Source: Shigella phage Sf12. Taken from it: a stretch of DNA of 47,647 bases. The DNA lies in the sequence record MF158039; one strand, 5' to 3'. Below, in pieces: positions 8,657 through 24,157 of the stretch. The position numbers were made by a program, and so were the translations under genes. Under the pieces are notes generated by a model. The model was given only the letters and a program-made list of their open reading frames with translations, searched no databases and was not told the DNA's origin. Position 1 is the stretch's first letter. The number at the start of each line of letters is the position of its first letter.

Positions 8657-9051
8657 GAAAGATAATCCTCAATTGCCAACTTAAACATTTCGAACCCATA
8701 GCAGATTGCCGCGTAACCTCCTGTTTCTGATACCTTTTCAAGAAACTCCTTTTGCTCATTTGAAACCTTGCTATCTGATTTTATTGCTCGCTTAAGCTCT
8801 ATTGCGGCAAAGCCATTAGGCCCAATCAGAAGGATATCTGACACGCCTTTGATAACCCCCTCTTGCTTATCCTTCATAGCAGTACCAATAGACTTCAACC
8901 CCTCATTCTTCACGTGCCATGCGAATATCTCTGGGTGATTATGGCGAACCCATGCGATTGAATTGGTTTGGTGAATGCACTCTTTACTTTTATCTTCTGA
9001 CTTCTTATCTAAGAATATTTTAACGCTCATTTTCTGCTCCGTGGTTTTCAT
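8638..9051 (-). CDS. VRR-NUC-like nuclease
   Basis: GVSDILLIGPNGFAAIELKR resembles the VRR-NUC G-x-P/S-D ... E-x-K core. Confidence 0.55.
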   Translation of the reverse strand: MKTTEQKMSVKIFLDKKSEDKSKECIHQTNSIAWVRHNHPEIFAWHVKNEGLKSIGTAMKDKQEGVIKGVSDILLIGPNGFAAIELKRAIKSDSKVSNEQKEFLEKVSETGGYAAICYGFEMFKLAIEDYLSNSTNC

Positions 9052-9550
9052 GGTACCCGATTTCTTTTTCTAAAGACTTCCTGGCTAACACTGCTGACTT
9101 CAAATCCACAAAGTAACCTATGTGCTTCTCCTTGCCGTTTATGTTTATGTAAGCTCTGAATTTCTGCTCTCTCTTGTTCCAGCTAACACCTGTAACCCCT
9201 GAAGTGTTGTCATTCCTTTTGCTTTGATTTTTTAAATTATCCTGCTTAGATACTAACCTTAGATTTTCAATCCTATTGTCATCTCTTATGTGGTTTATAT
9301 GGTCTATCTCCATTCCTTTAGGGATTTTGCCATTATAAATCTCCCATATTATCCTATGTGCAAGAAATGGTTTTTTATTTAAAATTATCTGAATGTATCC
9401 GATGTTTTTGGTTCCAGCCTCTTTGCCTGCATAGTTTCCATTCCATTGGGGCCTAACATCACCCCTCCATTTCCAAAACAACTTAAAATCATCACTTAAT
9501 GAAAAATAATCCAACCAATCAAAATTGCTTATTACTAATGACATCTTCAC
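9020..9550 (-). CDS. HNH homing endonuclease
   Basis: EIDHINHIRDDNRIENLRLV motif; overlaps both neighbours. Confidence 0.8.
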   Translation of the reverse strand: MKMSLVISNFDWLDYFSLSDDFKLFWKWRGDVRPQWNGNYAGKEAGTKNIGYIQIILNKKPFLAHRIIWEIYNGKIPKGMEIDHINHIRDDNRIENLRLVSKQDNLKNQSKRNDNTSGVTGVSWNKREQKFRAYININGKEKHIGYFVDLKSAVLARKSLEKEIGYHENHGAENER

Positions 9551-12081: not shown

Positions 12082-13005
12082 ATGAACTACGACAAGAAAG
12101 AAGTAATGGCAAGAATGAAAGGATTATGGCCGGATGCTTTAGTTAAGTTATGCGGCGTCAATCCTTCAGTATTTAAAACTAAACGCCATCAACCTTGCAT
12201 ATACTGTGGCGGCACTGACAGGTGGCGCTGGACTGACAAGGTTAGTGAGCATGGGGATGGCGGGGCAATTTGCAACCAATGCGGGGCTGGCGACGGCATA
12301 ATTTGGATACAGAAACTACGAGGGGAGTCTTTTAGCGAGGCGGTAAATACTGTTGGTGAGTGGCTAAACCTGGTTCCAGTTGAGGTGATCAACAAGGCTA
12401 ACAAGTCAGCAAGCAGAGTTCAGCGGTACAAAAATGGCGCTCAATCATCTCCTGATAGGATTAATTTGGTAATGAGTAAAACTGAGCTCGTATATGATAG
12501 TCCAATACTTAGATTTGAGGGCTTGCACACATATGATGGAATGAGAGTTGGCAGAAATGATATTGGAGAGGTAATTCACGCTGAGCCTTGCTTTATGGTG
12601 TATGAGGACGGTTTATCAGATGAGCCTTGTAATGTAAAGTTTATCAATGAAGAGGGTGATGAATCATATCTTGCAAAAGATTATACTCGTGGCTCAGTTA
12701 TTCCGGTCAGTGAATGTAGTGATGGGGCAATCTATCTTACGGTGGGTTGGGTTAACGCATTACACGTATCGGCATGCACAAAAAGGACGACATACGACTG
12801 CCTCACTCATCACAACTTAGAGATGGTGGCTTATGAACTTAGAGGTAAGGAGTGCAGAATAGCTTGTCTTGCTGATGATAAAGAGTCGCTTTATGTTGCT
12901 GACGATAGGGGGCTGAAGGTGGTGATTCCAAATGGTGGAAACTTCAAAATGGGGCTTGAGCGAAAGCTATATAGCCCACAAGATCTGATAGATAAGCATT
13001 CATAA
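12082..13005 (+). CDS. DNA primase (P4-type zinc-ribbon N-terminus, Toprim-like C-terminus)
   Basis: HQPCIYCGGTDRWRW ... GAICNQCGAGDGI zinc-ribbon; LYVADDRG. Confidence 0.7.
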   Translation: MNYDKKEVMARMKGLWPDALVKLCGVNPSVFKTKRHQPCIYCGGTDRWRWTDKVSEHGDGGAICNQCGAGDGIIWIQKLRGESFSEAVNTVGEWLNLVPVEVINKANKSASRVQRYKNGAQSSPDRINLVMSKTELVYDSPILRFEGLHTYDGMRVGRNDIGEVIHAEPCFMVYEDGLSDEPCNVKFINEEGDESYLAKDYTRGSVIPVSECSDGAIYLTVGWVNALHVSACTKRTTYDCLTHHNLEMVAYELRGKECRIACLADDKESLYVADDRGLKVVIPNGGNFKMGLERKLYSPQDLIDKHS

Positions 13006-13008
13006 CAA

Positions 13009-13032
13009 TAACCCTCTTCGGAGGGTTTTTTA
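13009..13032 (+). terminator. Rho-independent terminator
   Basis: aaccctcttcggagggtt followed by tttttat. Confidence 0.6.
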
Positions 13033-13083
13033 TTACAACTAATCTGATACAATAGGTTTCATCTATCAAATAGGAGAAATAAA

Positions 13084-14280
13084 ATGGCAATTTATGACGC
13101 AGGAACAGCATCGCTTGCGGCTGACGGAACTGTAACTGGTGTTGGTACTACCTGGAGGCAGCCGTTAACTCTAATTCGAGTTGGTGCGACGATGATTTTC
13201 AACACCACGCCAGCAAGCATTGTAACTATTGCTGAAATTATCAGCGATACAGAAATTAGAGTTTTTAACGATAAGGGCTTTACCGCGCCAGCAGGAACCC
13301 AGTACTCAATTCTTGCTCATGACGGAATTACTGTTCAGGGATTGGCTCAGGATGTTGCAGAGACACTTAGATATTACCAGTCTAATAACTATGTAACCGC
13401 AGATGAAAATGGAAACGTTGAAATTCAGAATGGAGGTACAGGTGCAAGTAGTGCACCAGATGCACGAGCTAACTTAGGTTTAGGTTCGGCAGCTACATTT
13501 GATACCGTTCCTGTAGCTAACGGCGGCACAGGTGCTAACAACGCATCTGACGCGCGCGATAACCTTGGGTTAGGTCCATTATCTACATCTAATGTGGCAC
13601 CAATAGAGAACGGCGGGACTGGAGTAACAACTCGAGAGGAGCTATGGCCTATCGTTCGACCTTTCGACGTGTACGGTAACGTTGGACGCCGAATGGGTTT
13701 ACCGGACGGTATCACACGAAACCACATCACTATGTGGAACTCGGCAGACACGCCGTCGGCAGGTTTCATGAACTATTTAGAAGGCGGATGGTTCAACGGT
13801 GCATGGCGTATCGGTGGGATACGTGGCGGTGGACAGGATCTGGCAGCATGCCAACTGACAGTTGACAGCGGTCAAGGTATGAATTATGACTATGTGTTCA
13901 ACAATAACGGTACAGCGAGCGCTGCAAACTGGGTCAGCACATCTGACCGACGCGTAAAAAAAGACATCGTTGAAATAGCAGACCCGCTAACTAAGATGCG
14001 CTCGATTCGAGGCGTATCATGGACTATGCGCTTCAAAAATAACCCCCTTAAAGGTTTCGGCTTTGTGGCACAGGAAGTGCAAAAGTATTTTCCTGATGCC
14101 GTTAGTGTGGTAAACAAAAACCCCATGACACTTGAAGACGATACAGTTGTTGAGGGTGTCATGAGCGTTGACACATCTGGAGTGTCCGCTGCACTACATC
14201 ACGAAGCCATACTGACACTGATGGATAAAATTGAAGTTCTTGAGTCACGAATATCTTCTCTTGAGGCTGGAGGGAAATAA
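13084..14280 (+). CDS. Side tail fiber with three NGGTGA..A(R)xNLGLG repeats and C-terminal intramolecular-chaperone (peptidase S74-like) domain
   Basis: Repeats at aa 116-180; C-terminal STSDRRVKKDI ... GFGFVAQEVQKYFPDAV. Confidence 0.7.
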   Translation: MAIYDAGTASLAADGTVTGVGTTWRQPLTLIRVGATMIFNTTPASIVTIAEIISDTEIRVFNDKGFTAPAGTQYSILAHDGITVQGLAQDVAETLRYYQSNNYVTADENGNVEIQNGGTGASSAPDARANLGLGSAATFDTVPVANGGTGANNASDARDNLGLGPLSTSNVAPIENGGTGVTTREELWPIVRPFDVYGNVGRRMGLPDGITRNHITMWNSADTPSAGFMNYLEGGWFNGAWRIGGIRGGGQDLAACQLTVDSGQGMNYDYVFNNNGTASAANWVSTSDRRVKKDIVEIADPLTKMRSIRGVSWTMRFKNNPLKGFGFVAQEVQKYFPDAVSVVNKNPMTLEDDTVVEGVMSVDTSGVSAALHHEAILTLMDKIEVLESRISSLEAGGK

Positions 14281-14376
14281 TTAGCCACTTCATGATGCCA
14301 TAAATTAAGTAACGCAAAATCACTTAATGAAGTTATCATGAATATAGTAACGCATCCAATTTAGATTAATTATCAC

Positions 14377-14410
14377 AAAAAAAAGGCCCCGAAAGGGGCC
14401 TTATCTTTCG
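14377..14410. terminator. Bidirectional terminator between convergent fiber and SSB genes
   Basis: aaaaaaaaggccccgaaaggggcctt. Confidence 0.65.
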
Positions 14411-14414
14411 AATA

Positions 14415-14840
14415 TCAGAACGGAATATCCTCTTCGTCATTGAATCGACTTTGCTGCTGAGGTTGCTGGCGTTGCTGCTGCTGTGGTTGTTGCTGGTATT
14501 GCTGCTGTGGTGCCGATTCACCACCTCGCTGGCTAAACATCAACCGAGGATTCTGCAACTCAAGCGTGATATAAGTCTTGCCGTTATGTTCTCGCTCATT
14601 AATAGCCAATGAATCACCGCTCACAGAGATAACCTTTCCTTCCTGGAAGGCTTCATCATACCAGCTAACCTGAGCCTCGCTTGCAAAAAATGTTACTGAG
14701 TAATTTGTGTATTTCCTTTCACCTTCTTTATTTTTATATGACTCTGAAAGTTCAACCTTATACATCTTCCACTGGCCTTTACTGTTTTCCCCAGTCTTTG
14801 TGAAAGGCGTTTTGCGGATATTTCCAGTTAAAGTATGCAT
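14415..14840 (-). CDS. ssb: Single-stranded DNA-binding protein
   Basis: Gln/Pro-rich linker and acidic tail ending DEEDIPF. Confidence 0.75.
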   Translation of the reverse strand: MHTLTGNIRKTPFTKTGENSKGQWKMYKVELSESYKNKEGERKYTNYSVTFFASEAQVSWYDEAFQEGKVISVSGDSLAINEREHNGKTYITLELQNPRLMFSQRGGESAPQQQYQQQPQQQQRQQPQQQSRFNDEEDIPF

Positions 14841-15608: not shown

Positions 15609-16570
15609 TTTTCGTATTTTGACATGTAGTATGAAGGAACCTGTAGCTCCATAGAGTCCTCAATCATGTTGTAGCCAGGCCAGCGGTCGTACTTCTTGCA
15701 CTGCTTGTATGTCGCCAGGGCTTCCATGTATTGACGCCGACCTAAGGCAATATGTGCATCTGATAGCGTGTAGCACATTGGTAAGTAGGGAGCCTTTTTT
15801 TCTTGAGCTAAAAGCCGAACTAAAACTTTACGTTTTTCGTTGAAAGCACGAACAAACAAATCTCTTTGCAAAGCCATTTTTAGCAGGTAACCATAATTGG
15901 CAGCTAGCCTACCAAACCCTTCAGGAGATGCGTCTGATGTCGTTTTAAAATCTGTAATTATGACCGTATCACCAACAACATCAACGTGGTCCAGCCTAAC
16001 CTTAACTCCGCACTCATTAATCTCTCCGAAGATTGATAGTTCCCTCTGAGCGGTTTCGCTGTTAACTATAGCGTTGTAAGCGGGAATGCCACACAACACC
16101 TCTCGCATCGCTTGTACGGTGTCAAAGTCCTTAGCTGATACAATCTCGCGGCCTTCGGCTTTAATCTCGCTAGATCGCTGGATATCCCACCATACGTTGA
16201 GTGATTCACCAGTCAGCGTCAGCATCTCCATCAATTCAGGGTAATCCTTGCCAGAAGTTCCCGTGATTCCCATCGCCTTAAGTCTTGCGGCTAATGCAGT
16301 CTTGCTTGTGATAAGGTCTTCAAACTCTTCCTGTGCTGGCTGTCGGTAATAAGTAGAATCGAATATGTCACTTTCCAAAATCATTGTATGTGCTGCGCTA
16401 CCAAATGAAAGCGCCCTGCTTTTCTCACTCTCCTGAAATCTAAATGCAGCAGGGCATGTTGAAAATATCTTAGCAAGACCGCTACCCGATACGTGATCAA
16501 CTTCTGAATGATAAGCATCATTTGTTAGCTCATCTCTCGTAAAGACCTTGAATTTCATTTTTCCCACCAT
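15593..16570 (-). CDS. PD-(D/E)XK recombination exonuclease (YqaJ/RecE-like)
   Basis: LDHVDVVGDTVIITDFKT D...D-x-K core; recombination-module context. Confidence 0.6.
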   Translation of the reverse strand: MVGKMKFKVFTRDELTNDAYHSEVDHVSGSGLAKIFSTCPAAFRFQESEKSRALSFGSAAHTMILESDIFDSTYYRQPAQEEFEDLITSKTALAARLKAMGITGTSGKDYPELMEMLTLTGESLNVWWDIQRSSEIKAEGREIVSAKDFDTVQAMREVLCGIPAYNAIVNSETAQRELSIFGEINECGVKVRLDHVDVVGDTVIITDFKTTSDASPEGFGRLAANYGYLLKMALQRDLFVRAFNEKRKVLVRLLAQEKKAPYLPMCYTLSDAHIALGRRQYMEALATYKQCKKYDRWPGYNMIEDSMELQVPSYYMSKYENSTNS

Positions 16571-17078
16571 GCTCTAATGTGAACTTGTTTTTCTTGTTGA
16601 ACTCTAAGCGAACCTTTATGGCCTCCTCCCTTGTATCGAACCTTCCTAGATTTACTGTCTTACCATTTAATCCGGCCCTTGCTATCCACTTGCTTCTATT
16701 TTTATCCCAACAAACACCACAAAAACCAGAAGTGTTATCATCCCTCATTTTTGAATTTCTATTGTTAACTGACTGAGTTACCACTCTAAGGTTTGATATC
16801 TTATTATCATCTCTAAATCCATTAACGTGGTCTATTTGATGCCCTTCTGGTATCTTTGATTTCAAAATCTCCCAAATAGCCCTATGAGCCATGTACTTCA
16901 CATTGTCAATTGTTATGTATATGTATCCTCTCTTCTCATTCTTAACGCCCGCCCTTTTATTTGCAAACCTTGAATTCCACATTTTACATGTCCTTGATGA
17001 TGGGAAATCTGATTCTGGTCTATTCTTCCATATCAGATAACCATCTTCATGGTATGTGAAGTATCTACTCCAATCCAT
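16530..17078 (-). CDS. HNH homing endonuclease
   Basis: QIDHVNGFRDDNKISNLRVV motif. Confidence 0.8.
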   Translation of the reverse strand: MDWSRYFTYHEDGYLIWKNRPESDFPSSRTCKMWNSRFANKRAGVKNEKRGYIYITIDNVKYMAHRAIWEILKSKIPEGHQIDHVNGFRDDNKISNLRVVTQSVNNRNSKMRDDNTSGFCGVCWDKNRSKWIARAGLNGKTVNLGRFDTREEAIKVRLEFNKKNKFTLEHGGKNEIQGLYER

Positions 17079-18928: not shown

Positions 18929-18938
18929 GGTGAATAAG

Positions 18939-19160
18939 ATGAAAAAATTAATCGTTATCGCAGCAATGATGTTAGGTGGGTGCTCTACGATGCCAGAACG
19001 CACTTGTACGGCGACTTATGAGTCAGGCGGAATGAGTTACTCGGTTTATGTTTTTGGCACGCAGAAGCGCGGTGATGAGCTTTTACTTAGGGCTGGATAT
19101 CCATTCTCGTTCCAGTATGTCTCTGAGCGGAATTTTAAAGACCACGATTGCGGTGGTTGA
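18939..19160 (+). CDS. Small lipoprotein, candidate Cor/Llp-like superinfection-exclusion factor
   Basis: Signal peptide with lipobox MLGGC; convergent on distal tail-tip genes. Confidence 0.55.
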   Translation: MKKLIVIAAMMLGGCSTMPERTCTATYESGGMSYSVYVFGTQKRGDELLLRAGYPFSFQYVSERNFKDHDCGG

Positions 19161-19162
19161 TA

Positions 19163-19190
19163 AAGAAAAAGCCCCGAAAGGGGCTTTAGT
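19163..19190. terminator. Bidirectional terminator
   Basis: aaagccccgaaaggggcttt flanked by A/T runs. Confidence 0.65.
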
Positions 19191-19716
19191 CGTTTGTGAA
19201 TTTTGGTTTGATTACTTCACCATTTGATCCATTCCTTAATTCATAAATCATGTCAAATTCAGAGTTTGTATAAGCATCAACAGTAATCCAATCCTCTGGA
19301 AAAAACTCACCAAATGAACCAGTATACTTGTCATCATCATAGTCACCGATAAACTTACTATAAAAAACCCTTAAATCAGTTCTTGAAAAGTCATAATCAT
19401 CATCACCTAAATCAGACCATGAAATATTGAAGCCCTCTCTCAAGAATGGATCATCTTTAGGCTCCATGACGCCACCTTCATTTAAAACATAATAACCATC
19501 AGAACCATCCTCTGGATTGTACCAATCAAAGTTTCTATAAAGCCTGTATCCATTTAGGATATTAGATAGAATTGAACTAAACTCAGAAAGCCCATACCAT
19601 GAACCGGAAATCTCATCATAACCATACTCAAGATCCCCAATGTCTACATCAAAGTAAAATGGTCCATGATCAACACCACCAACACTCGCCCAAACCAAAG
19701 TTTTTTTAATGCTCAT
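19186..19716 (-). CDS. Hypothetical acidic Trp/Tyr-rich protein at the distal end of the tail module
   Basis: ORF track; position after J. Confidence 0.45.
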   Translation of the reverse strand: MSIKKTLVWASVGGVDHGPFYFDVDIGDLEYGYDEISGSWYGLSEFSSILSNILNGYRLYRNFDWYNPEDGSDGYYVLNEGGVMEPKDDPFLREGFNISWSDLGDDDYDFSRTDLRVFYSKFIGDYDDDKYTGSFGEFFPEDWITVDAYTNSEFDMIYELRNGSNGEVIKPKFTND

Positions 19717-19725
19717 AATTTCCCC

Positions 19726-20442
19726 TTAATCGTAGTTTGATGTATTAATTGCCACAGCAGTAACTCCAGTGTTTATTGAACCAGTCTGAGAGCCAGGTAC
19801 AGTATTGTATCCAGCCGCCCTTATTCTTGTTCTCGAACCGTTGTAGTTAGCTGTTGTGTATAGGTCAATTGTATACCTCTGAGGTATACCTCCAACAATT
19901 TGCTCAGATATTATCGCTCCTAACCTCCTCGGTGATACAGCCCATGATCCAGATAATAATGAGCCGGTATCTATGTTTATACCTCCCCCAGCTTGCCCTG
20001 GTGTTCCAACCGTTCTTAAATCTGAAAGCACCTTCGTTTCGTTAGTTAGTATTAACTTGCCAGCAGCATCCCATATTGCCATGCCCCAATCAGGTAATGT
20101 TTGCGTGAATATCCCGAAAATATATACTGTTGCAGTAAAATTTTCTCCGCTTGAGTTTTGCGCTGTGAAGTAAACATTTCCAGAGTTTGGTCCACTTGTG
20201 AATCTGTAAGCAGCAATTCCCGTACCTGTGTTTGTCTCTGTCGTCTTTGCGAAAACCATGCAAGGTATATCATTTGGAACTGGTATGTAAACTGAACCTG
20301 TCATACCACCACTACCAGAATGGGTTGTTTTTTTGTATAAAGCAAAAGGTGTTGAGTTTGGGGTTATGAATGGATTTCCATTAACATCAATCATTGCACC
20401 ATAAGACATTATTGATTCTCCAGATAAATTACAAGGTAGCAC
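19726..20442 (-). CDS. Hypothetical Gly/Thr/Ser-rich tail-module protein (possible fiber or receptor-binding component)
   Basis: ORF track; composition; position after J. Confidence 0.45.
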   Translation of the reverse strand: MLPCNLSGESIMSYGAMIDVNGNPFITPNSTPFALYKKTTHSGSGGMTGSVYIPVPNDIPCMVFAKTTETNTGTGIAAYRFTSGPNSGNVYFTAQNSSGENFTATVYIFGIFTQTLPDWGMAIWDAAGKLILTNETKVLSDLRTVGTPGQAGGGINIDTGSLLSGSWAVSPRRLGAIISEQIVGGIPQRYTIDLYTTANYNGSRTRIRAAGYNTVPGSQTGSINTGVTAVAINTSNYD

Positions 20443-20714
20443 TCTTCTGCTGGATAAACTCCATCTCCAGGCGTTGTTGTTGCTGATATCGTTATAGCGT
20501 TTCCACTTGCGGTTATCTTTCTGGCTGCCTCATTTCCACCAACACTCAAGCTGACTGTGTAACCTAACTTTGTTCCAGACGGTATTGTGTATGAGTAACT
20601 CCCTGAAGTTTGACCAGTCTCAAGCTTAACAACCGCAACAACCGTGACTGGCTTAATCCCATAGTTATTGTAATTACCATTTGCATCATATGTAGCAATC
20701 CCATATGCAGCCAT
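20409..20714 (-). CDS. Hypothetical tail-module protein, 101 aa
   Basis: ORF track. Confidence 0.45.
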   Translation of the reverse strand: MAAYGIATYDANGNYNNYGIKPVTVVAVVKLETGQTSGSYSYTIPSGTKLGYTVSLSVGGNEAARKITASGNAITISATTTPGDGVYPAEECYLVIYLENQ

Positions 20715-20761: not shown

Positions 20762-23700
20762 TTAGTAAACTCCAGTCAAACGGCCAATCTGAACACGAAG
20801 CCTTCCGTTAGCGTCAGCAACAGATATTGTCTCATTTGTTTGCTTCATTCTACCCTCTCCAGCCGTAGAGCCGTTATTTTCGAACGTTCCACCCTTGTCA
20901 AGTCTCCATCCGACAGAGCCAAATACGTAGTTGTTAGACTGAATTGCACCACCAATCTTCGCGTTAGTGATTGAACCGTCCTGAATAACCGCGCTTTGTA
21001 TGAATACCTGGTTATTCTCGACAACGAAAGGCAGCGACCACTGACCGGAACCAGAACTAATGCCGTTACTGATTGCAAACCTGTTAGCATCGAAAATGAA
21101 CTGACTACGAACATTTCCACCACTACCGGTTAACTCCATGCTCATGCCAGCACCGTACTCAACTCCATTGTACTTAAGGCCTAGCTTAACGCCGTACTGA
21201 ACACCAACGCCTTCAACTGTAGCGTAAGAGTCGAGCTTCTGATTCAAAGCCGCCTCGTTATCACCAAGCCTTGCGCTGAGAGCCGTATCAGCAGTAGCCC
21301 TCGCTTCCGTCTCGGTTGCTAGCGCTGTTTCGATAGTTGTAATCTGACCAACAATCTCATCATCAATTTGCGCCTTAAGCTGCGTAAGAGCCTCTACACG
21401 AGCCTCAGTTTCGTTGGCTATTAGATTAACAGCCTGACGATACTCAGCCTTCCTGGCTCCATTTTCACGCCTCATAACACGAACATCAGTATCGTTTGCC
21501 AATGCGTTCTCAATTATTGCCTCGGCCTGGTTCTGAATGTCAGCATTTGCATCTATCGCGTTCTGGAGTAGATACTTGTATCCATCTGAGTTTTCAATAT
21601 CAACCTTAATTTCTCCAATGATTGCACTCACGTCATCCGAAGCCATACCCCTGACAAAATCAGTCCATTGCGATACGTTACCAATCCTGTCGATCGTTCT
21701 TCCCCTATACCAGATCACCTTTCCTGCCGGGAGCGTCGTGTGCCAATACTCAAACTGAGGGTAAGGAACGAGAGTTAACAATGAGGCATTCTCAGGGGTG
21801 TATGTCCCATCGCCATTATCAGCAACTTGCTGCAATTCCACATAAGCAGTATCACCACTATTATTGCCAAAACCCCACTTAACACGGATGCCAAATACTT
21901 CATCATCTGAAGCCGTGATGACCTGCAATGGCTCAGGCTCACCAACCTTACCAGTCAAGCTAACTGTTGTAATTTCAGACCATGCCGATACTGATTTTTG
22001 GTCAGTTACAGCACGAACCCTGACGTCGTAAATGCCAGCGTAGATGCCTTCAATATCAACCTCAGTGTTAGCCGTCTCCGGTACATTAATCCAGTTTCCG
22101 TTATTCTTACGCCATTGCACGTTGTATGTTTTCGCATACTGCACCTTGTCGTAACCGATAACCATCGTCTCAACGCTCATGCCCTGAACTACTTTGCTGT
22201 AACTAGTAACCGTAATGTTCTTCGGTGGTAAAATCCTGTCAGGGTCAACTATGCTTGTTGGCCTGTCGTCGATGTTTACTCCGTAGTCAATCTCATCGTA
22301 CTTGTTAGGGTCATACTGAACAGCCGTGATGCTGTACTGGAATGAATCCTCTCCGTCCGTGTTGGCTTTTTGAATCCCGGTCACAACATATTGCTGTAAA
22401 GCAAGATTCTGCTTGTCGATTGCAAATACCGTATCTGGCTGCGGCGTGAAGCTGAATGCTGTATTCAGCTCAAGCGTCAACTTATCGGCAGATACTGAAG
22501 CGATAGTCCTGTACTCCGGGCTTCCATCTGGCTTGTTGATTAAGATTCTGTCGCCAGGGTCAGCATCAATAGCGAACGGAACAAAAACCTGCAAACCAGT
22601 AGCCTCCACGATTCGACCAGAAAGGTTTAACGTGTAATTGCTTGACCAAGCTTGGTCATTAACAGCAATGACATCACCAATCATAGGAATCATACCTTCG
22701 AGTCCGGTGGTGAATGTTATTGTTTCGCTACGCAAGTTCGTTTTAAGGAGCCAACGACCACGACGGTTAGCCTCGCTACGCCTTACGCATCCAATTGCAG
22801 TCAGGTCTACAGGGTTATACCCAAACCTGCGAGTTGCCTCAAGGTCAAACACTGGCTCTACGTCTTGCTGGTAGTTGTTCTCTACATCATCAAACTGAAC
22901 GTTGGCAGTCGTGTACAAACTCTTATCACTAGCAAACGTGCGGTTGAATAAACCATCGACTACGTTATCATTTGTGAATACGTAACTTGGTTGGCGCGGC
23001 CTGTCAACTACAATCCCAATTTGCTCACCATCATAGAAGGTTAATCCACGGAAAATGGAACAGATGTCACGAATAATCTGATACGCTTCCACTTTCTGCT
23101 GAATGACAACGTTACAAGTATATCGCGGCTCCATTCCACCCTTACCATCCGGGACCATCTGGTCGCAGAATTGCGCAGCTTCATACAGACCCCACTTATC
23201 AATCTCAACTCCAAGCTCTCGCTGGTCAAGCCCATACCTCTGACTGACTACCAGGTCATATAAAACCCACGCCGGGTTATCTGACCATGCCATCTTGAAA
23301 GTTCCATCCCAAGTTCCGCTATAAGTCCGCGTTGCTGGGGTGTAGTTTGTTGGGACTCTAATTATCTTCCACCTTTTCTTGATTGCGATAGGCGGCAACC
23401 CGTTAGGAAAAAGGTCTGAACTGAACTCTACATAAACAAGCGCTGTAAGTGGATAACGGAATTTGGCGTCAATTACTTCCTGATAGGTCGTAATCTGCAT
23501 TCCGTTTACCAGAGTGCTGCTTGTTGAGTCTGGCGTTAACTTCCTAATACGAACAAGAGCGCTGCTAAACTCGGCTGGTAAGTTAACCCTGATACTGCGG
23601 TCGTAACCTGTTGTAGTTTTACCGTTAGCCACGCCTCTGGTATATTCAGTGTACGCTGAGCCATTAACTGATAAATCGATTGCATATTCACATGTTGTGC

Positions 23701-24157
23701 CATTTAAATCTCCATTCTCTTCTTGCTTAACGAGTCTAGGCCAGAACAGCTTGACGCGAATTGCTGATAGCTGACTGTTGTTTACTGCTATGATGTAAGG
23801 TGTATCGTTGTTAATCTCGCGGCTAACCTGAATCTCTGATGCTGCACCATCTAGTCCGGCGATATAGTCTTGAGACTGAGTGCCAGGGCGAAATTCTGCG
23901 GTCACTCCTTCGTAGTTGAATGAGTTATCCTGGTTTTGCACGGGAACGTCAGCAAGGTAAAGGTCTTTAAGTGAAAAGCTTGAGTCAACCTCGCCATCAG
24001 CAACGGCCAGTAGCACCTTAATCTTGTTGAGTGAAATCAGGTTATCTTCTTGCTCTACAGGTGTGTGCTGCTTTTGGCTACCACCCTTGCTTCCATAAAT
24101 CTTTGGCAAATCGGCCATATCATATAACCTCGTTGTTTGTTTAACCATTTGTGCCAT
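20762..24157 (-). CDS. Central tail fiber / host-specificity protein (lambda gpJ-like); probable true start at Met 24118
   Basis: YSGTWDGTF ... DKWGLYEAAQFCDQMVPDGKGGMEPRYTCN resembles lambda J conserved core as recalled. Confidence 0.9.
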   Translation of the reverse strand: MAQMVKQTTRLYDMADLPKIYGSKGGSQKQHTPVEQEDNLISLNKIKVLLAVADGEVDSSFSLKDLYLADVPVQNQDNSFNYEGVTAEFRPGTQSQDYIAGLDGAASEIQVSREINNDTPYIIAVNNSQLSAIRVKLFWPRLVKQEENGDLNGTTCEYAIDLSVNGSAYTEYTRGVANGKTTTGYDRSIRVNLPAEFSSALVRIRKLTPDSTSSTLVNGMQITTYQEVIDAKFRYPLTALVYVEFSSDLFPNGLPPIAIKKRWKIIRVPTNYTPATRTYSGTWDGTFKMAWSDNPAWVLYDLVVSQRYGLDQRELGVEIDKWGLYEAAQFCDQMVPDGKGGMEPRYTCNVVIQQKVEAYQIIRDICSIFRGLTFYDGEQIGIVVDRPRQPSYVFTNDNVVDGLFNRTFASDKSLYTTANVQFDDVENNYQQDVEPVFDLEATRRFGYNPVDLTAIGCVRRSEANRRGRWLLKTNLRSETITFTTGLEGMIPMIGDVIAVNDQAWSSNYTLNLSGRIVEATGLQVFVPFAIDADPGDRILINKPDGSPEYRTIASVSADKLTLELNTAFSFTPQPDTVFAIDKQNLALQQYVVTGIQKANTDGEDSFQYSITAVQYDPNKYDEIDYGVNIDDRPTSIVDPDRILPPKNITVTSYSKVVQGMSVETMVIGYDKVQYAKTYNVQWRKNNGNWINVPETANTEVDIEGIYAGIYDVRVRAVTDQKSVSAWSEITTVSLTGKVGEPEPLQVITASDDEVFGIRVKWGFGNNSGDTAYVELQQVADNGDGTYTPENASLLTLVPYPQFEYWHTTLPAGKVIWYRGRTIDRIGNVSQWTDFVRGMASDDVSAIIGEIKVDIENSDGYKYLLQNAIDANADIQNQAEAIIENALANDTDVRVMRRENGARKAEYRQAVNLIANETEARVEALTQLKAQIDDEIVGQITTIETALATETEARATADTALSARLGDNEAALNQKLDSYATVEGVGVQYGVKLGLKYNGVEYGAGMSMELTGSGGNVRSQFIFDANRFAISNGISSGSGQWSLPFVVENNQVFIQSAVIQDGSITNAKIGGAIQSNNYVFGSVGWRLDKGGTFENNGSTAGEGRMKQTNETISVADANGRLRVQIGRLTGVY

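What the first reader, a model, noticed from the sequence alone, without database searches (positions are those of the whole stretch)
13084..14280. Side tail fiber with auto-cleaving chaperone domain encoded away from the tail module
The fiber gene with triple GGTG..NLGLG repeats and a C-terminal S74-like intramolecular chaperone sits between the primase and SSB genes, 5 kb from the other tail genes, flanked by its own terminators. This layout makes it an easily exchangeable host-range cassette.
Basis: partly seen in the sequence, partly recalled or inferred. Interest (0 to 1): 0.45.

Follow-up and report, generated by a model that had tools for sequence, protein, structure and literature searches.

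The report
Known lateral tail fiber gene, phage Sf12
This is the lateral (side) tail fiber gene of the published Shigella phage Sf12, with a probably self-cleaving folding domain at its end; its odd position among replication genes and its swappable outer half are already described for this phage family, so the finding is correct but ordinary.

Summary

The primase–fiber–SSB position is conserved across Drexlerviridae and was described by Maffei et al. 2021, who also noted that only the 5' end of the gene is conserved.

- There are two complete GGTG..NLGLG repeats, not three; the third unit has GGTG only.
- The downstream terminator is shared with SSB and lies about 100 nt past the stop codon.
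- The exchanged unit is not the terminator-bounded gene. It is the distal part, from codon ~101 to nt 14372.

The fiber is a chimera. Its anchor is 98–99% identical to other Rogunavirinae fibers. Its tip and chaperone module is 83.5% nt identical to a Dhillonvirus fiber. A conserved terminator, TGnTAnAAT promoter-like element and RBS precede the gene. Cleavage, virion incorporation and receptor are untested. Interest is low.

The parts
13010..13035 (+). Rho-independent terminator closing the regulator-primase unit (stem 13010-13027 plus T-run)
   Evidence: -10.5 kcal/mol, z=-3.6. Conserved in 6 Drexlerviridae, with compensatory changes at 2 of 7 pairs; 92.9% of cells are paired against 43-60% when the partner is slid.
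13045..13053 (+). TGATACAAT, an extended -10-like promoter element (TGnTAnAAT); function inferred
   Evidence: T, G, T, A, A, A, T are invariant across Sf12, AHS24, Phleasolo, BrunoManser, phiA2-1 and TH30. The whole intergenic region is 98% identical among the three Rogunavirinae. The simple -35/-10 scan did not call it. No transcript data.
13072..13076 (+). Ribosome-binding site AGGAG, 7 nt before the ATG
13084..14280 (+). Lateral tail fiber gene, 398 aa (GenBank ATE85753.1; RefSeq YP_009791998.1)
   Evidence: (phrog_1980, E=3.9e-71, aa 1-396).
13084..13383 (+). N-terminal anchor (virion-attachment) domain, aa 1-100, ending in the LAQDVAETLRYYQS junction motif
   Evidence: 98-99% aa identity to AHS24 and Phleasolo at only 84-88% nt identity, while primase is 49-69% and SSB 81-83% identical in aa. 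Homologous to aa 1-107 of Klebsiella phage depolymerases 7VYV and 7LZJ, E~1e-28. Modelled as a beta-rich domain, pLDDT ~85. The same anchor is fused to unrelated distal domains in other phages.
13420..13599 (+). Two complete 30-aa NGGTGA..A.AR.NLGLG shaft repeats (aa 113-172)
   Evidence: 16/30 identical. They match the repeats in PDB 7Z47_D 'putative tail fiber', E=4e-12. Similar repeats occur in the fiber ORF at the same locus in TH30 and in P0010. No nt homolog at useful length in the phage collection.
13612..13941 (+). Third GGTG (aa 177) plus the beta-rich tip domain (aa ~190-286), the presumed receptor-binding part of the mature fiber
   Evidence: Part of the module 13612-14234, 83.5% nt identical to the Dhillonvirus Shigella phage 1b fiber. 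68-73% aa identical to fibers with other N-termini, P0002, P0004, P0006 and P0008. AF2 strands 197-280, pLDDT 80-88. No specific PDB fold match.
13939..13959 (+). Predicted autocleavage site T286|S287 with catalytic K292 (TSDRRVK)
   Evidence: S287, D288 and K292 are invariant. S287 aligns with the first residue of the cleaved GA-1 CIMCD chain 3GUD. Same T|S-x4-K as T5 pb1 Thr1263-Ser1264/Lys1269.
13942..14277 (+). C-terminal intramolecular chaperone (Peptidase_S74), aa 287-398, 12.4 kDa, ending in a long helix (aa 364-396)
14281..14372 (.). 92-nt AT-rich spacer unique to Sf12; probably the 3' end of the imported segment
   Evidence: Absent in relatives, whose fiber stop abuts the terminator. 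No match in phages or complete E. coli genomes. No Rfam family. Contains an 18-nt direct repeat and an 8-nt inverted repeat.
14377..14410 (.). Hairpin terminator shared by the convergent fiber and SSB genes
   Evidence: + strand -16.8 kcal/mol with a weak U-tract; - strand -19.6 kcal/mol with U8. Annotated on both strands in AHS24. Homology to Rogunavirinae resumes at 14373.

Best explanation
ORF 13084..14280 is the lateral (side) tail fiber of Shigella phage Sf12, a T1-like siphovirus (Drexlerviridae, Rogunavirinae). I infer that it is a single-gene transcription unit lying between the replication genes (helicase, regulator, primase) and the recombination genes (SSB, Erf, ExoVIII).

The protein has four modules:
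1. aa 1-100: a very strongly conserved anchor that docks the trimer onto the tail.
2. aa ~113-172: two NGGTG..NLGLG shaft repeats.
3. aa ~177-286: a small beta-rich tip that most likely binds a surface glycan (O-antigen or LPS) for reversible primary adsorption.
4. aa 287-398: a Peptidase_S74 intramolecular chaperone.

Inferred mechanism, by analogy with T5 pb1 and endosialidase. Three chains trimerise, nucleated by the C-terminal chaperone. Once the tip is correctly folded, Ser287, activated by Lys292, cleaves the Thr286-Ser287 bond. The 12.4-kDa chaperone is released, leaving a mature fiber of ~29.8 kDa with an exposed tip.

Host-range evolution works by recombination that keeps the regulatory region and the anchor and replaces everything distal. 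The homology arms are the conserved 5' 300 nt, ending in the LAQDVAETLRYYQ-coding motif, and the terminator/SSB flank. In Sf12 the result is a chimera: a Rogunavirinae anchor, a repeat linker, and a tip-plus-chaperone module shared with Dhillonvirus fibers and with fibers that carry other N-termini.

Shown here: gene, homologies, conserved residues, synteny, breakpoints. Inferred: transcription signals, trimerisation, cleavage, virion location, glycan receptor.
For: Identity. The window's protein is 100% identical to the Sf12 protein on a 47,647-bp contig, classified in Drexlerviridae; Rogunavirinae; Eastlansingvirus. RefSeq names it 'tail fiber protein'.

Fiber. phrog_1980 matches full length, E=4e-71, along with dozens of other tail-fiber PHROGs. 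The N-terminus is homologous to Klebsiella siphovirus depolymerase fibers 7LZJ and 7VYV; 7LZJ is DpK2, which forms the tail appendages seen on RAD2 virions (PMC8552709). The protein is 33% identical over its full length to the mEpX2/HK97-type side tail fiber.

Chaperone. Pfam S74 matches. A profile hits solved IMC/ICA domains. S287, D288 and K292 are invariant. The T|S-x4-K arrangement is the same as in T5 pb1. The AF2 model's best PDB match is the MyRF ICA domain.

Synteny. Primase-fiber-SSB order is found in AHS24, Phleasolo, BrunoManser and phiA2-1, and by ORF similarity in TH30. It is described in PMC8594841.

Mosaicism. The breakpoints lie at nt ~13386 and 14373, and the internal block 13612-14234 is 83.5% identical to a Dhillonvirus fiber. 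The same anchor is fused to beta-helix/pectate-lyase-like, Tail_spike_N+GDPD, Tail_spike_N+Exo_endo_phos or S74 modules elsewhere. The anchor is 98-99% aa identical at 84-88% nt identity.

Transcription unit. The terminator is conserved with compensatory changes, followed by an invariant TGnTAnAAT and an RBS.
Against: There is no experimental evidence for Sf12: no virion proteomics, no cleavage assay, no receptor data, no transcript mapping.

The AF2 model is a monomer of a presumably trimeric protein (pTM 0.32), and the shaft region has pLDDT below 50.

The tip domain has no recognisable solved homolog, so glycan binding rests on family analogy. Maffei et al. themselves state this has 'never been directly demonstrated' for Drexlerviridae.

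The promoter element lacks a recognisable -35 and was not called by the consensus scan.

The plus-strand side of the downstream terminator has a weak U-tract.
Confidence: 0.85

Rival explanations
1. The whole terminator-flanked gene is the mobile unit. Under this reading complete fiber genes are swapped between phages by recombination in the flanking terminators or intergenic regions.
For: The gene is bracketed by two hairpin terminators. The flanks are conserved and syntenic across the family. The 3' breakpoint does lie at the downstream terminator, 14373.
Against: The 5' breakpoint is inside the gene, at codon ~100-101 (nt 13382-13386), in comparisons with two different relatives. The first 100 aa are 98-99% identical to fibers whose remainder is unrelated. 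Maffei et al. report the same pattern for 13 other Drexlerviridae. The anchor must match the phage's own tail, so importing a whole gene from an unrelated phage would probably not assemble (inference).
Confidence: 0.08
2. The gene encodes a fiber-like protein whose S74 domain is not cleaved, or a short, degenerate fiber that is not functional or not assembled on the Sf12 virion.
For: At 398 aa it is much shorter than the 870-905-aa fibers of its closest relatives. It is a singleton at 90% identity among ~15 billion proteins. A unique 92-nt spacer follows the stop codon, as expected after a recent illegitimate join. Lateral fibers are dispensable on rough laboratory hosts in related phages.
Against: The reading frame is intact with a good RBS. 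All catalytic and near-invariant S74 residues are present. The anchor is under strong purifying selection. Equally short or shorter fibers occupy the same locus in other Drexlerviridae: phiA2-1 at 362 aa and TH30 at 439 aa. Short fibers also occur in lambdoid phages, such as mEpX2 at 389 aa.
Confidence: 0.06
3. It is an enzymatic tailspike/depolymerase, like the products of the same locus in its closest relatives (annotated 'tail spike protein').
For: Relatives carry 870-905-aa proteins here with the same anchor. Anchors of this type are fused to beta-helix/pectate-lyase-like, GDPD or phosphatase-type domains. The anchor matches solved capsule depolymerases.
Against: No enzymatic or beta-helix domain is detected in Pfam at E<=1. 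Only ~95 residues lie between the shaft repeats and the chaperone. The model shows a small beta-sandwich-like tip and no beta-helix.
Confidence: 0.03
4. It is a DNA-binding winged helix-turn-helix protein, as the GenBank record ATE85753.1 names it; this would fit its position among replication genes.
For: The GenBank and UniRef name. The gene is located between the primase and SSB genes.
Against: No wHTH or any DNA-binding family matches in Pfam or NCBIfam. The full length matches tail-fiber families. RefSeq renamed it tail fiber protein. An S74 chaperone and fiber repeats are present.
Confidence: 0.01

Closest known systems
Lateral tail fiber locus of Drexlerviridae (T1-like phages), as described by Maffei et al. 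2021 (BASEL collection, PMC8594841, S1C Fig)
   Same: Same position between the primase/helicase genes and the recombination genes. The flanks are conserved and syntenic. Only the far 5' end (N-terminal attachment part) is conserved and the rest is hypervariable. The proposed role is O-antigen primary receptor binding.
   Different: Nothing categorical. Sf12 carries a short allele (398 aa) ending in an S74 chaperone, with a distal module otherwise seen in a Dhillonvirus fiber and in fibers that carry other N-termini, plus a unique 92-nt spacer before the terminator.
Bacteriophage T5 L-shaped tail fiber pb1 (PDB 4UW7/4UW8 family; PMC4690869)
   Same: A siphovirus lateral fiber ending in an intramolecular chaperone that cleaves at Thr|Ser with a Lys five residues later (T1263|S1264...K1269 versus T286|S287...K292). 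The chaperone ends in a helix predicted or known to form a coiled coil. The related L-shaped fiber 8HQZ is hit by the profile at E=1e-5.
   Different: pb1 is 1396 aa with a long shaft and a 'bullet' tip of unique topology. The Sf12 fiber would be only 286 aa when mature, and its tip has no detectable similarity to a solved structure. The N-terminal anchors are unrelated.
Endosialidase / GA-1 neck appendage C-terminal intramolecular chaperone domains (Peptidase_S74; PDB 3GUD) and the eukaryotic MyRF ICA domain (7DC3)
   Different: Those chaperones follow triple beta-helix or beta-helical enzymatic stalks. Here the chaperone follows a small tip domain of a non-enzymatic fiber.
HK97 / HK022 / mEpX2-type short side tail fibers of lambdoid phages
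   Same: Similar overall size (389 versus 398 aa), 33% identity across the full length including the N-terminal domain and S74 C-terminus, and preceded by its own terminator. Sf12 also shares the J-p24-p25-Cor cassette.
   Different: In lambdoid phages the fiber gene sits directly after Cor at the end of the tail module. In Sf12 and other Drexlerviridae the recombination module lies between them.
Klebsiella siphovirus capsule depolymerase fibers DpK2 (7LZJ, phage RAD2) and Depo32 (7VYV/7VZ3)
   Same: Homologous N-terminal ~107 aa, including the LAQDVAETLRYYQS motif (E~1e-28). DpK2 forms the appendages on the siphovirus tail.
   Different: These are 907-aa enzymes with a beta-helix. Sf12 has no enzymatic domain.

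Membership tests
Peptidase_S74 / C-terminal intramolecular chaperone domain (CIMCD) | Sequence match to the family model above the curated threshold | tested here: met
   PF13884, E=1.1e-12, 48.5 bits against a cutoff of 22, aa 287-340. Profile hits to the solved members 6F45, 7DC3, 8JOV, 3GUD and 8HQZ.
Peptidase_S74 / C-terminal intramolecular chaperone domain (CIMCD) | Catalytic Ser and Lys (Ser n, Lys n+5) at the start of the domain | tested here: met
   S287 and K292 lie in TSDRRVK. S, D and K are invariant in 15 C-terminal segments and in 32 full-length homologs; R290 is invariant in the former and nearly invariant in the latter. The spacing and the preceding Thr match T5 pb1. S287 aligns to residue 1 of 3GUD.
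Peptidase_S74 / C-terminal intramolecular chaperone domain (CIMCD) | Chaperone fold: mixed alpha/beta region followed by a long C-terminal helix (trimeric coiled coil) | tested here: met
Peptidase_S74 / C-terminal intramolecular chaperone domain (CIMCD) | Autoproteolytic release of the domain after trimer folding | not testable with these tools
   Requires expression of wild type versus S287A, or virion mass spectrometry.
Drexlerviridae lateral tail fiber | Gene located between the primase gene and the SSB/recombination genes, convergent with SSB | tested here: met
   Window. The same order is found in AHS24, Phleasolo, BrunoManser and phiA2-1, and by ORF similarity in TH30. Described in the literature.
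Drexlerviridae lateral tail fiber | Conserved N-terminal ~100 aa attachment domain with variable distal part | tested here: met
   98-99% aa identity over aa 1-100 to more than 20 Rogunavirinae fibers, and none beyond. Breakpoint at nt 13382-13386.
Drexlerviridae lateral tail fiber | Structural component of the virion that binds a surface glycan | not testable with these tools
   Inferred only. [quoted passage not shown]
Tailspike / depolymerase | Central beta-helix or other enzymatic domain | tested here: not met
   No such Pfam domain at E<=1. No beta-helix in the model.
Winged helix-turn-helix DNA-binding protein (GenBank name) | Recognisable wHTH domain | tested here: not met
   No Pfam or NCBIfam match.

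The most novel reading that the evidence does not exclude
The Sf12 fiber may be a naturally minimal (286 aa when mature) chimera of three lineages. Its junction falls exactly after the LAQDVAETLRYYQ motif, which is shared by Drexlerviridae fibers, Klebsiella siphovirus depolymerases and prophage-type fibers such as P0002. That motif, together with the conserved terminator-promoter-RBS block upstream, could act as a universal splice point that lets very different siphoviruses plug any distal receptor-binding module onto their own anchor. If so, it would be directly usable for engineering host range.
Probability: 0.3. Interest if true: 0.3.

Novelty: already known. Interest (0 to 1): 0.12.

Why it matters
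It matters little beyond curation. The gene belongs to a published phage genome. RefSeq already calls it a tail fiber. The unusual position of the lateral fiber gene and its conserved-5'/variable-3' pattern are documented for the whole family.

Three things are still useful:
- The GenBank/UniRef name 'winged helix-turn-helix DNA-binding protein' is wrong.
- The breakpoints are mapped precisely (after codon ~100, and at the shared terminator), with the predicted T286|S287 cleavage site. This gives concrete design rules for swapping receptor-binding modules in T1-like phages.
- The fiber is small enough to serve as a convenient model for chaperone-assisted fiber folding.

Tried and rejected
1. 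DNA-level tandem repeats. Tandem Repeats Finder found none. The repeats exist only at the protein level and number two, not three.

2. A donor for the distal cassette. The only phage-collection nt match of useful length is Shigella phage 1b, at 83.5%. No match was found in 5,426 complete E. coli genomes. The direct donor remains unknown.

3. The 92-nt spacer 14281-14372. It gave no Rfam family above threshold, its folding is not significant (z=-1.5), and it has no homolog. It is left as a probable recombination scar.

5. The phage Sf11 tail structure paper (PMC12724387). Its tailspike attaches through N-terminal helices to a distal-tail-protein adaptor. It does not mention Sf12, and no homology to this anchor was tested, so I did not use it as evidence.

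6. A literature search for the NLGLG motif returned nothing relevant.

7. The sigma-70 consensus scan did not call a promoter upstream of the gene. The TGnTAnAAT element was found only by comparative alignment.

8. NCBIfam gave no hit.
Full report
**What the window is.** The 398-aa product of ORF 13084..14280 is 100% identical to a protein of Shigella phage Sf12 carried on a contig of exactly 47,647 bp. So the window is the Sf12 genome. Sf12 is classified in Drexlerviridae; Rogunavirinae; Eastlansingvirus. Its nearest sequenced relatives in the phage collection are Rogunavirinae such as Phleasolo/Opt-79, BECP10, e4/1c, AHS24 and Rogue1. They match at 84-87% nt identity over about 60-65% of the first 24 kb.

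**Checking the observation.**
- The ORF is exactly where stated, on the + strand, with an ATG start and AGGAG 7 nt upstream.
- Upstream is the primase gene (12082..13005, phrog_510, E=1e-97). Downstream and convergent is SSB (14415..14840, phrog_44, E=7.5e-31). SSB is followed by Erf, ExoVIII and an HNH endonuclease.
- The central fiber gene J (20762..24157, minus strand) is 6.5 kb away. The small ORFs that follow J begin 4.9 kb away.
- Pfam places Peptidase_S74 at aa 287-340 (E=1.1e-12, above the curated cutoff).
- A stable terminator hairpin with a T-run follows the primase gene (13010-13035).

Two details need correcting. First, GGTG occurs three times but NLGLG only twice. Units 1 and 2 share 16/30 residues, while unit 3 shares only NGGTG. 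There is no DNA-level tandem repeat. Second, the downstream hairpin (14383-14402) lies 102 nt beyond the stop codon. Its U8 tract is on the SSB strand, so it is a shared terminator rather than the fiber's own.

**What the protein is.** PHROG 1980 ('tail fiber protein') matches aa 1-396 at E=4e-71, and more than twenty other tail-fiber PHROGs match parts of the protein. The protein has four modules.

1. *Anchor, aa 1-100.* It is 98-99% identical to the N-termini of the 870-905-aa 'tail fiber/tail spike' proteins encoded at the same locus in other Rogunavirinae. It is also clearly homologous (E~1e-28) to the first 107 residues of the solved Klebsiella siphovirus depolymerases 7LZJ and 7VYV/7VZ3. 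7LZJ is DpK2 of phage RAD2, which forms the appendages visible on the RAD2 tail (PMC8552709). This segment keeps 98-99% aa identity at only 84-88% nt identity. By contrast, the neighbouring primase (49-69% aa), SSB (81-83%) and helicase (85-87%) have diverged far more. That is what one expects of a docking domain that must fit a conserved partner on the tail.
2. *Shaft repeats, aa ~113-172.* These are two NGGTGA..A.AR.NLGLG repeats. They match equivalent repeats in a solved phage tail fiber (7Z47_D, E=4e-12). Similar repeats occur in the TH30 fiber ORF and in the metagenomic homolog P0010.
3. *Tip, aa ~177-286.* AlphaFold2 predicts a beta-rich domain with pLDDT 80-88. It has no specific match among solved structures.
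4. *Intramolecular chaperone, aa 287-398.*

**The chaperone and the Ser-Lys test.** The dyad is present.
- S287, D288 and K292 (TSDRRVK) are invariant in an alignment of 15 diverse C-terminal segments and in 32 full-length homologs; R290 is invariant in the first alignment and nearly invariant in the second.
- A profile of the C-terminal 130 aa finds solved intramolecular chaperones: phage S16 gp37 (6F45, 3e-14), the MyRF ICA domain (7DC3, 5e-12), a tail fiber (8JOV, 2e-7), the GA-1 neck-appendage chaperone (3GUD, 6e-6) and an L-shaped tail fiber (8HQZ, 1e-5).
- The 3GUD chain, which is the released chaperone, begins with SDERHK aligned precisely on S287.
- In T5 pb1 the cleaved bond is Thr1263-Ser1264 and the activating residue is Lys1269 (PMC4690869). 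Sf12 has Thr286-Ser287 and Lys292, the same arrangement.

Cleavage would give a 29.8-kDa mature fiber and a 12.4-kDa chaperone. The cleavage itself is inferred, not shown.

**The layout is a family trait, already published.** The order helicase – regulator – primase – terminator – fiber – terminator – SSB – Erf – ExoVIII is found in five other phages:
- AHS24 and Phleasolo (Rogunavirinae);
- BrunoManser/Bas12 (Tunavirinae);
- phiA2-1 (Braunvirinae, with a 362-aa fiber);
- TH30 (Nouzillyvirus, with a 439-aa fiber; the record is unannotated, so genes were read from ORFs).

Maffei et al. 2021 (PMC8594841) describe exactly this. The lateral tail fiber locus lies between conserved, syntenic recombination and primase/helicase genes. 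[quoted passage not shown] The proposed role is O-antigen binding, which the authors say has never been directly demonstrated. A 2026 paper on T1-like phage KanT1 repeats this view.

**How exchange actually happens.** Nucleotide homology to AHS24 and Phleasolo runs through the end of the primase gene, the intergenic region and the first ~100 codons. It stops at nt 13382-13386 and resumes at 14373, at the shared terminator. Within the gap, nt 13612-14234 (aa 177-384) are 83.5% identical to the fiber of Shigella phage 1b. That phage is a Dhillonvirus, and its fiber has a different N-terminus and sits after J. At the protein level this tip-plus-chaperone module is 68-73% identical to fibers with at least three kinds of N-terminus:
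- the Dhillonvirus type;
- an 'MIYTTGT' type from E. coli, probably prophage;
- a type with a PF08400 N-terminal domain.

Conversely, the same Rogunavirinae-type anchor is found fused to beta-helix/pectate-lyase-like domains, Tail_spike_N+GDPD, Tail_spike_N+Exo_endo_phos, Phage_tail_C_2, Gp53-like_C or other S74 modules.

So the exchangeable unit is the distal part of the gene, not the terminator-bounded gene. The junction lies immediately after the LAQDVAETLRYYQS motif, which is also present in the Klebsiella depolymerases and in prophage-type fibers such as P0002. The repeat linker (13387-13611) and the last 46 nt of the gene plus a 92-nt spacer (14235-14372) have no nt homolog of useful length in the phage collection or in complete E. 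coli genomes. In relatives the stop codon abuts the terminator. The spacer is therefore probably a scar of the import. It matches no Rfam family and does not fold significantly.

**Transcription signals (inferred).** The primase–fiber intergenic region is 98% identical among the three Rogunavirinae. Across six phages from four lineages two elements are conserved:
- the terminator stem, with compensatory changes at two of seven pairs (92.9% of cells paired, against 43-60% when the partners are slid);
- an invariant TGnTAnAAT (TGATACAAT at 13045-13053 in Sf12), which looks like an extended -10 promoter.

Together with the RBS, this suggests the fiber is a single-gene transcription unit. No -35 element was recognised and no transcript data exist.

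**Rivals.**
- *Whole-gene exchange* is contradicted by the intragenic 5' breakpoint.
- *A degenerate or uncleaved fiber* cannot be excluded without experiments. It is unlikely given the intact catalytic residues, the purifying selection on the anchor, and the equally short fibers at this locus elsewhere.
- *An enzymatic tailspike* is not supported: no enzymatic domain was found.
- *The GenBank name* 'winged helix-turn-helix DNA-binding domain-containing protein' (ATE85753.1) is unsupported by Pfam and NCBIfam. RefSeq has already replaced it with 'tail fiber protein'.

**Verdict.** However, the feature is the ordinary, already described lateral tail fiber locus of T1-like phages, in a published genome. 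New here are only the details: the exact breakpoints, the chimeric origin of this allele, the predicted T286|S287 cleavage site, the conserved promoter-like element, and the annotation error. Novelty: already known. Interest: low.

Noticed in passing
window 18930-20714 (both strands), next to J at 20762..24157 (-): Downstream of J lie ORFs matching phrog_557 (20409..20714), phrog_425 (19726..20442) and a 176-aa ORF with no PHROG (19186..19716). A Cor superinfection-exclusion lipoprotein gene sits on the opposite strand (18930..19160). The first two ORFs and Cor form the same J-p24-p25-Cor set as in HK022/mEpX2, which the literature associates with FhuA-dependent phages. This hints that FhuA is the terminal receptor of Sf12.
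   Followed up: partly
window 9020..9550 (-) and 16530..17078 (-): Two paralogous HNH endonuclease genes (both phrog_99, E~1e-59 to 1e-64). Each overlaps the end of a neighbouring gene (helicase, ExoVIII). They are probably homing endonucleases inserted in the replication/recombination module.
   Followed up: no
window 13084..14280 (public records ATE85753.1 / YP_009791998.1): GenBank and UniRef name this protein 'winged helix-turn-helix DNA-binding domain-containing protein', while RefSeq names it 'tail fiber protein'. No wHTH domain is detectable, so the GenBank name is an annotation error.
   Followed up: yes
window 14281-14372: A 92-nt AT-rich spacer lies between the fiber stop codon and the shared terminator. 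It is absent from relatives. It contains an 18-nt direct repeat (14299-14316 / 14337-14354, 83%) and an 8-nt perfect inverted repeat (14289-14296 / 14335-14342). It has no Rfam match and no homolog. It may be a recombination scar or an unknown element.
   Followed up: partly
window 13045-13053; L001, L003, L004, L006, L007 equivalents: TGnTAnAAT (extended -10-like) is invariant upstream of the lateral fiber gene in six Drexlerviridae from four lineages. It lies just after a terminator whose stem shows compensatory substitutions. It is a likely dedicated promoter for the fiber gene, and no promoter is annotated at this position in the AHS24 record examined.
   Followed up: partly
window 12082..13005 (+) primase: The primase gene is itself mosaic. 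Nucleotide homology to AHS24 is missing for 12130-12563, and to Phleasolo for 12086-12859. Protein identity is only 69% and 49%, much lower than for the flanking regulator (87-99%) and the fiber anchor (98-99%).
   Followed up: no
window 14415..14840 (-) SSB: The SSB has a long Gln/Pro-rich low-complexity linker (…PQQQYQQQPQQQQRQQPQQQ…) before the acidic DEEDIPF tip. The TH30 homolog has a similar but longer tract.
   Followed up: no
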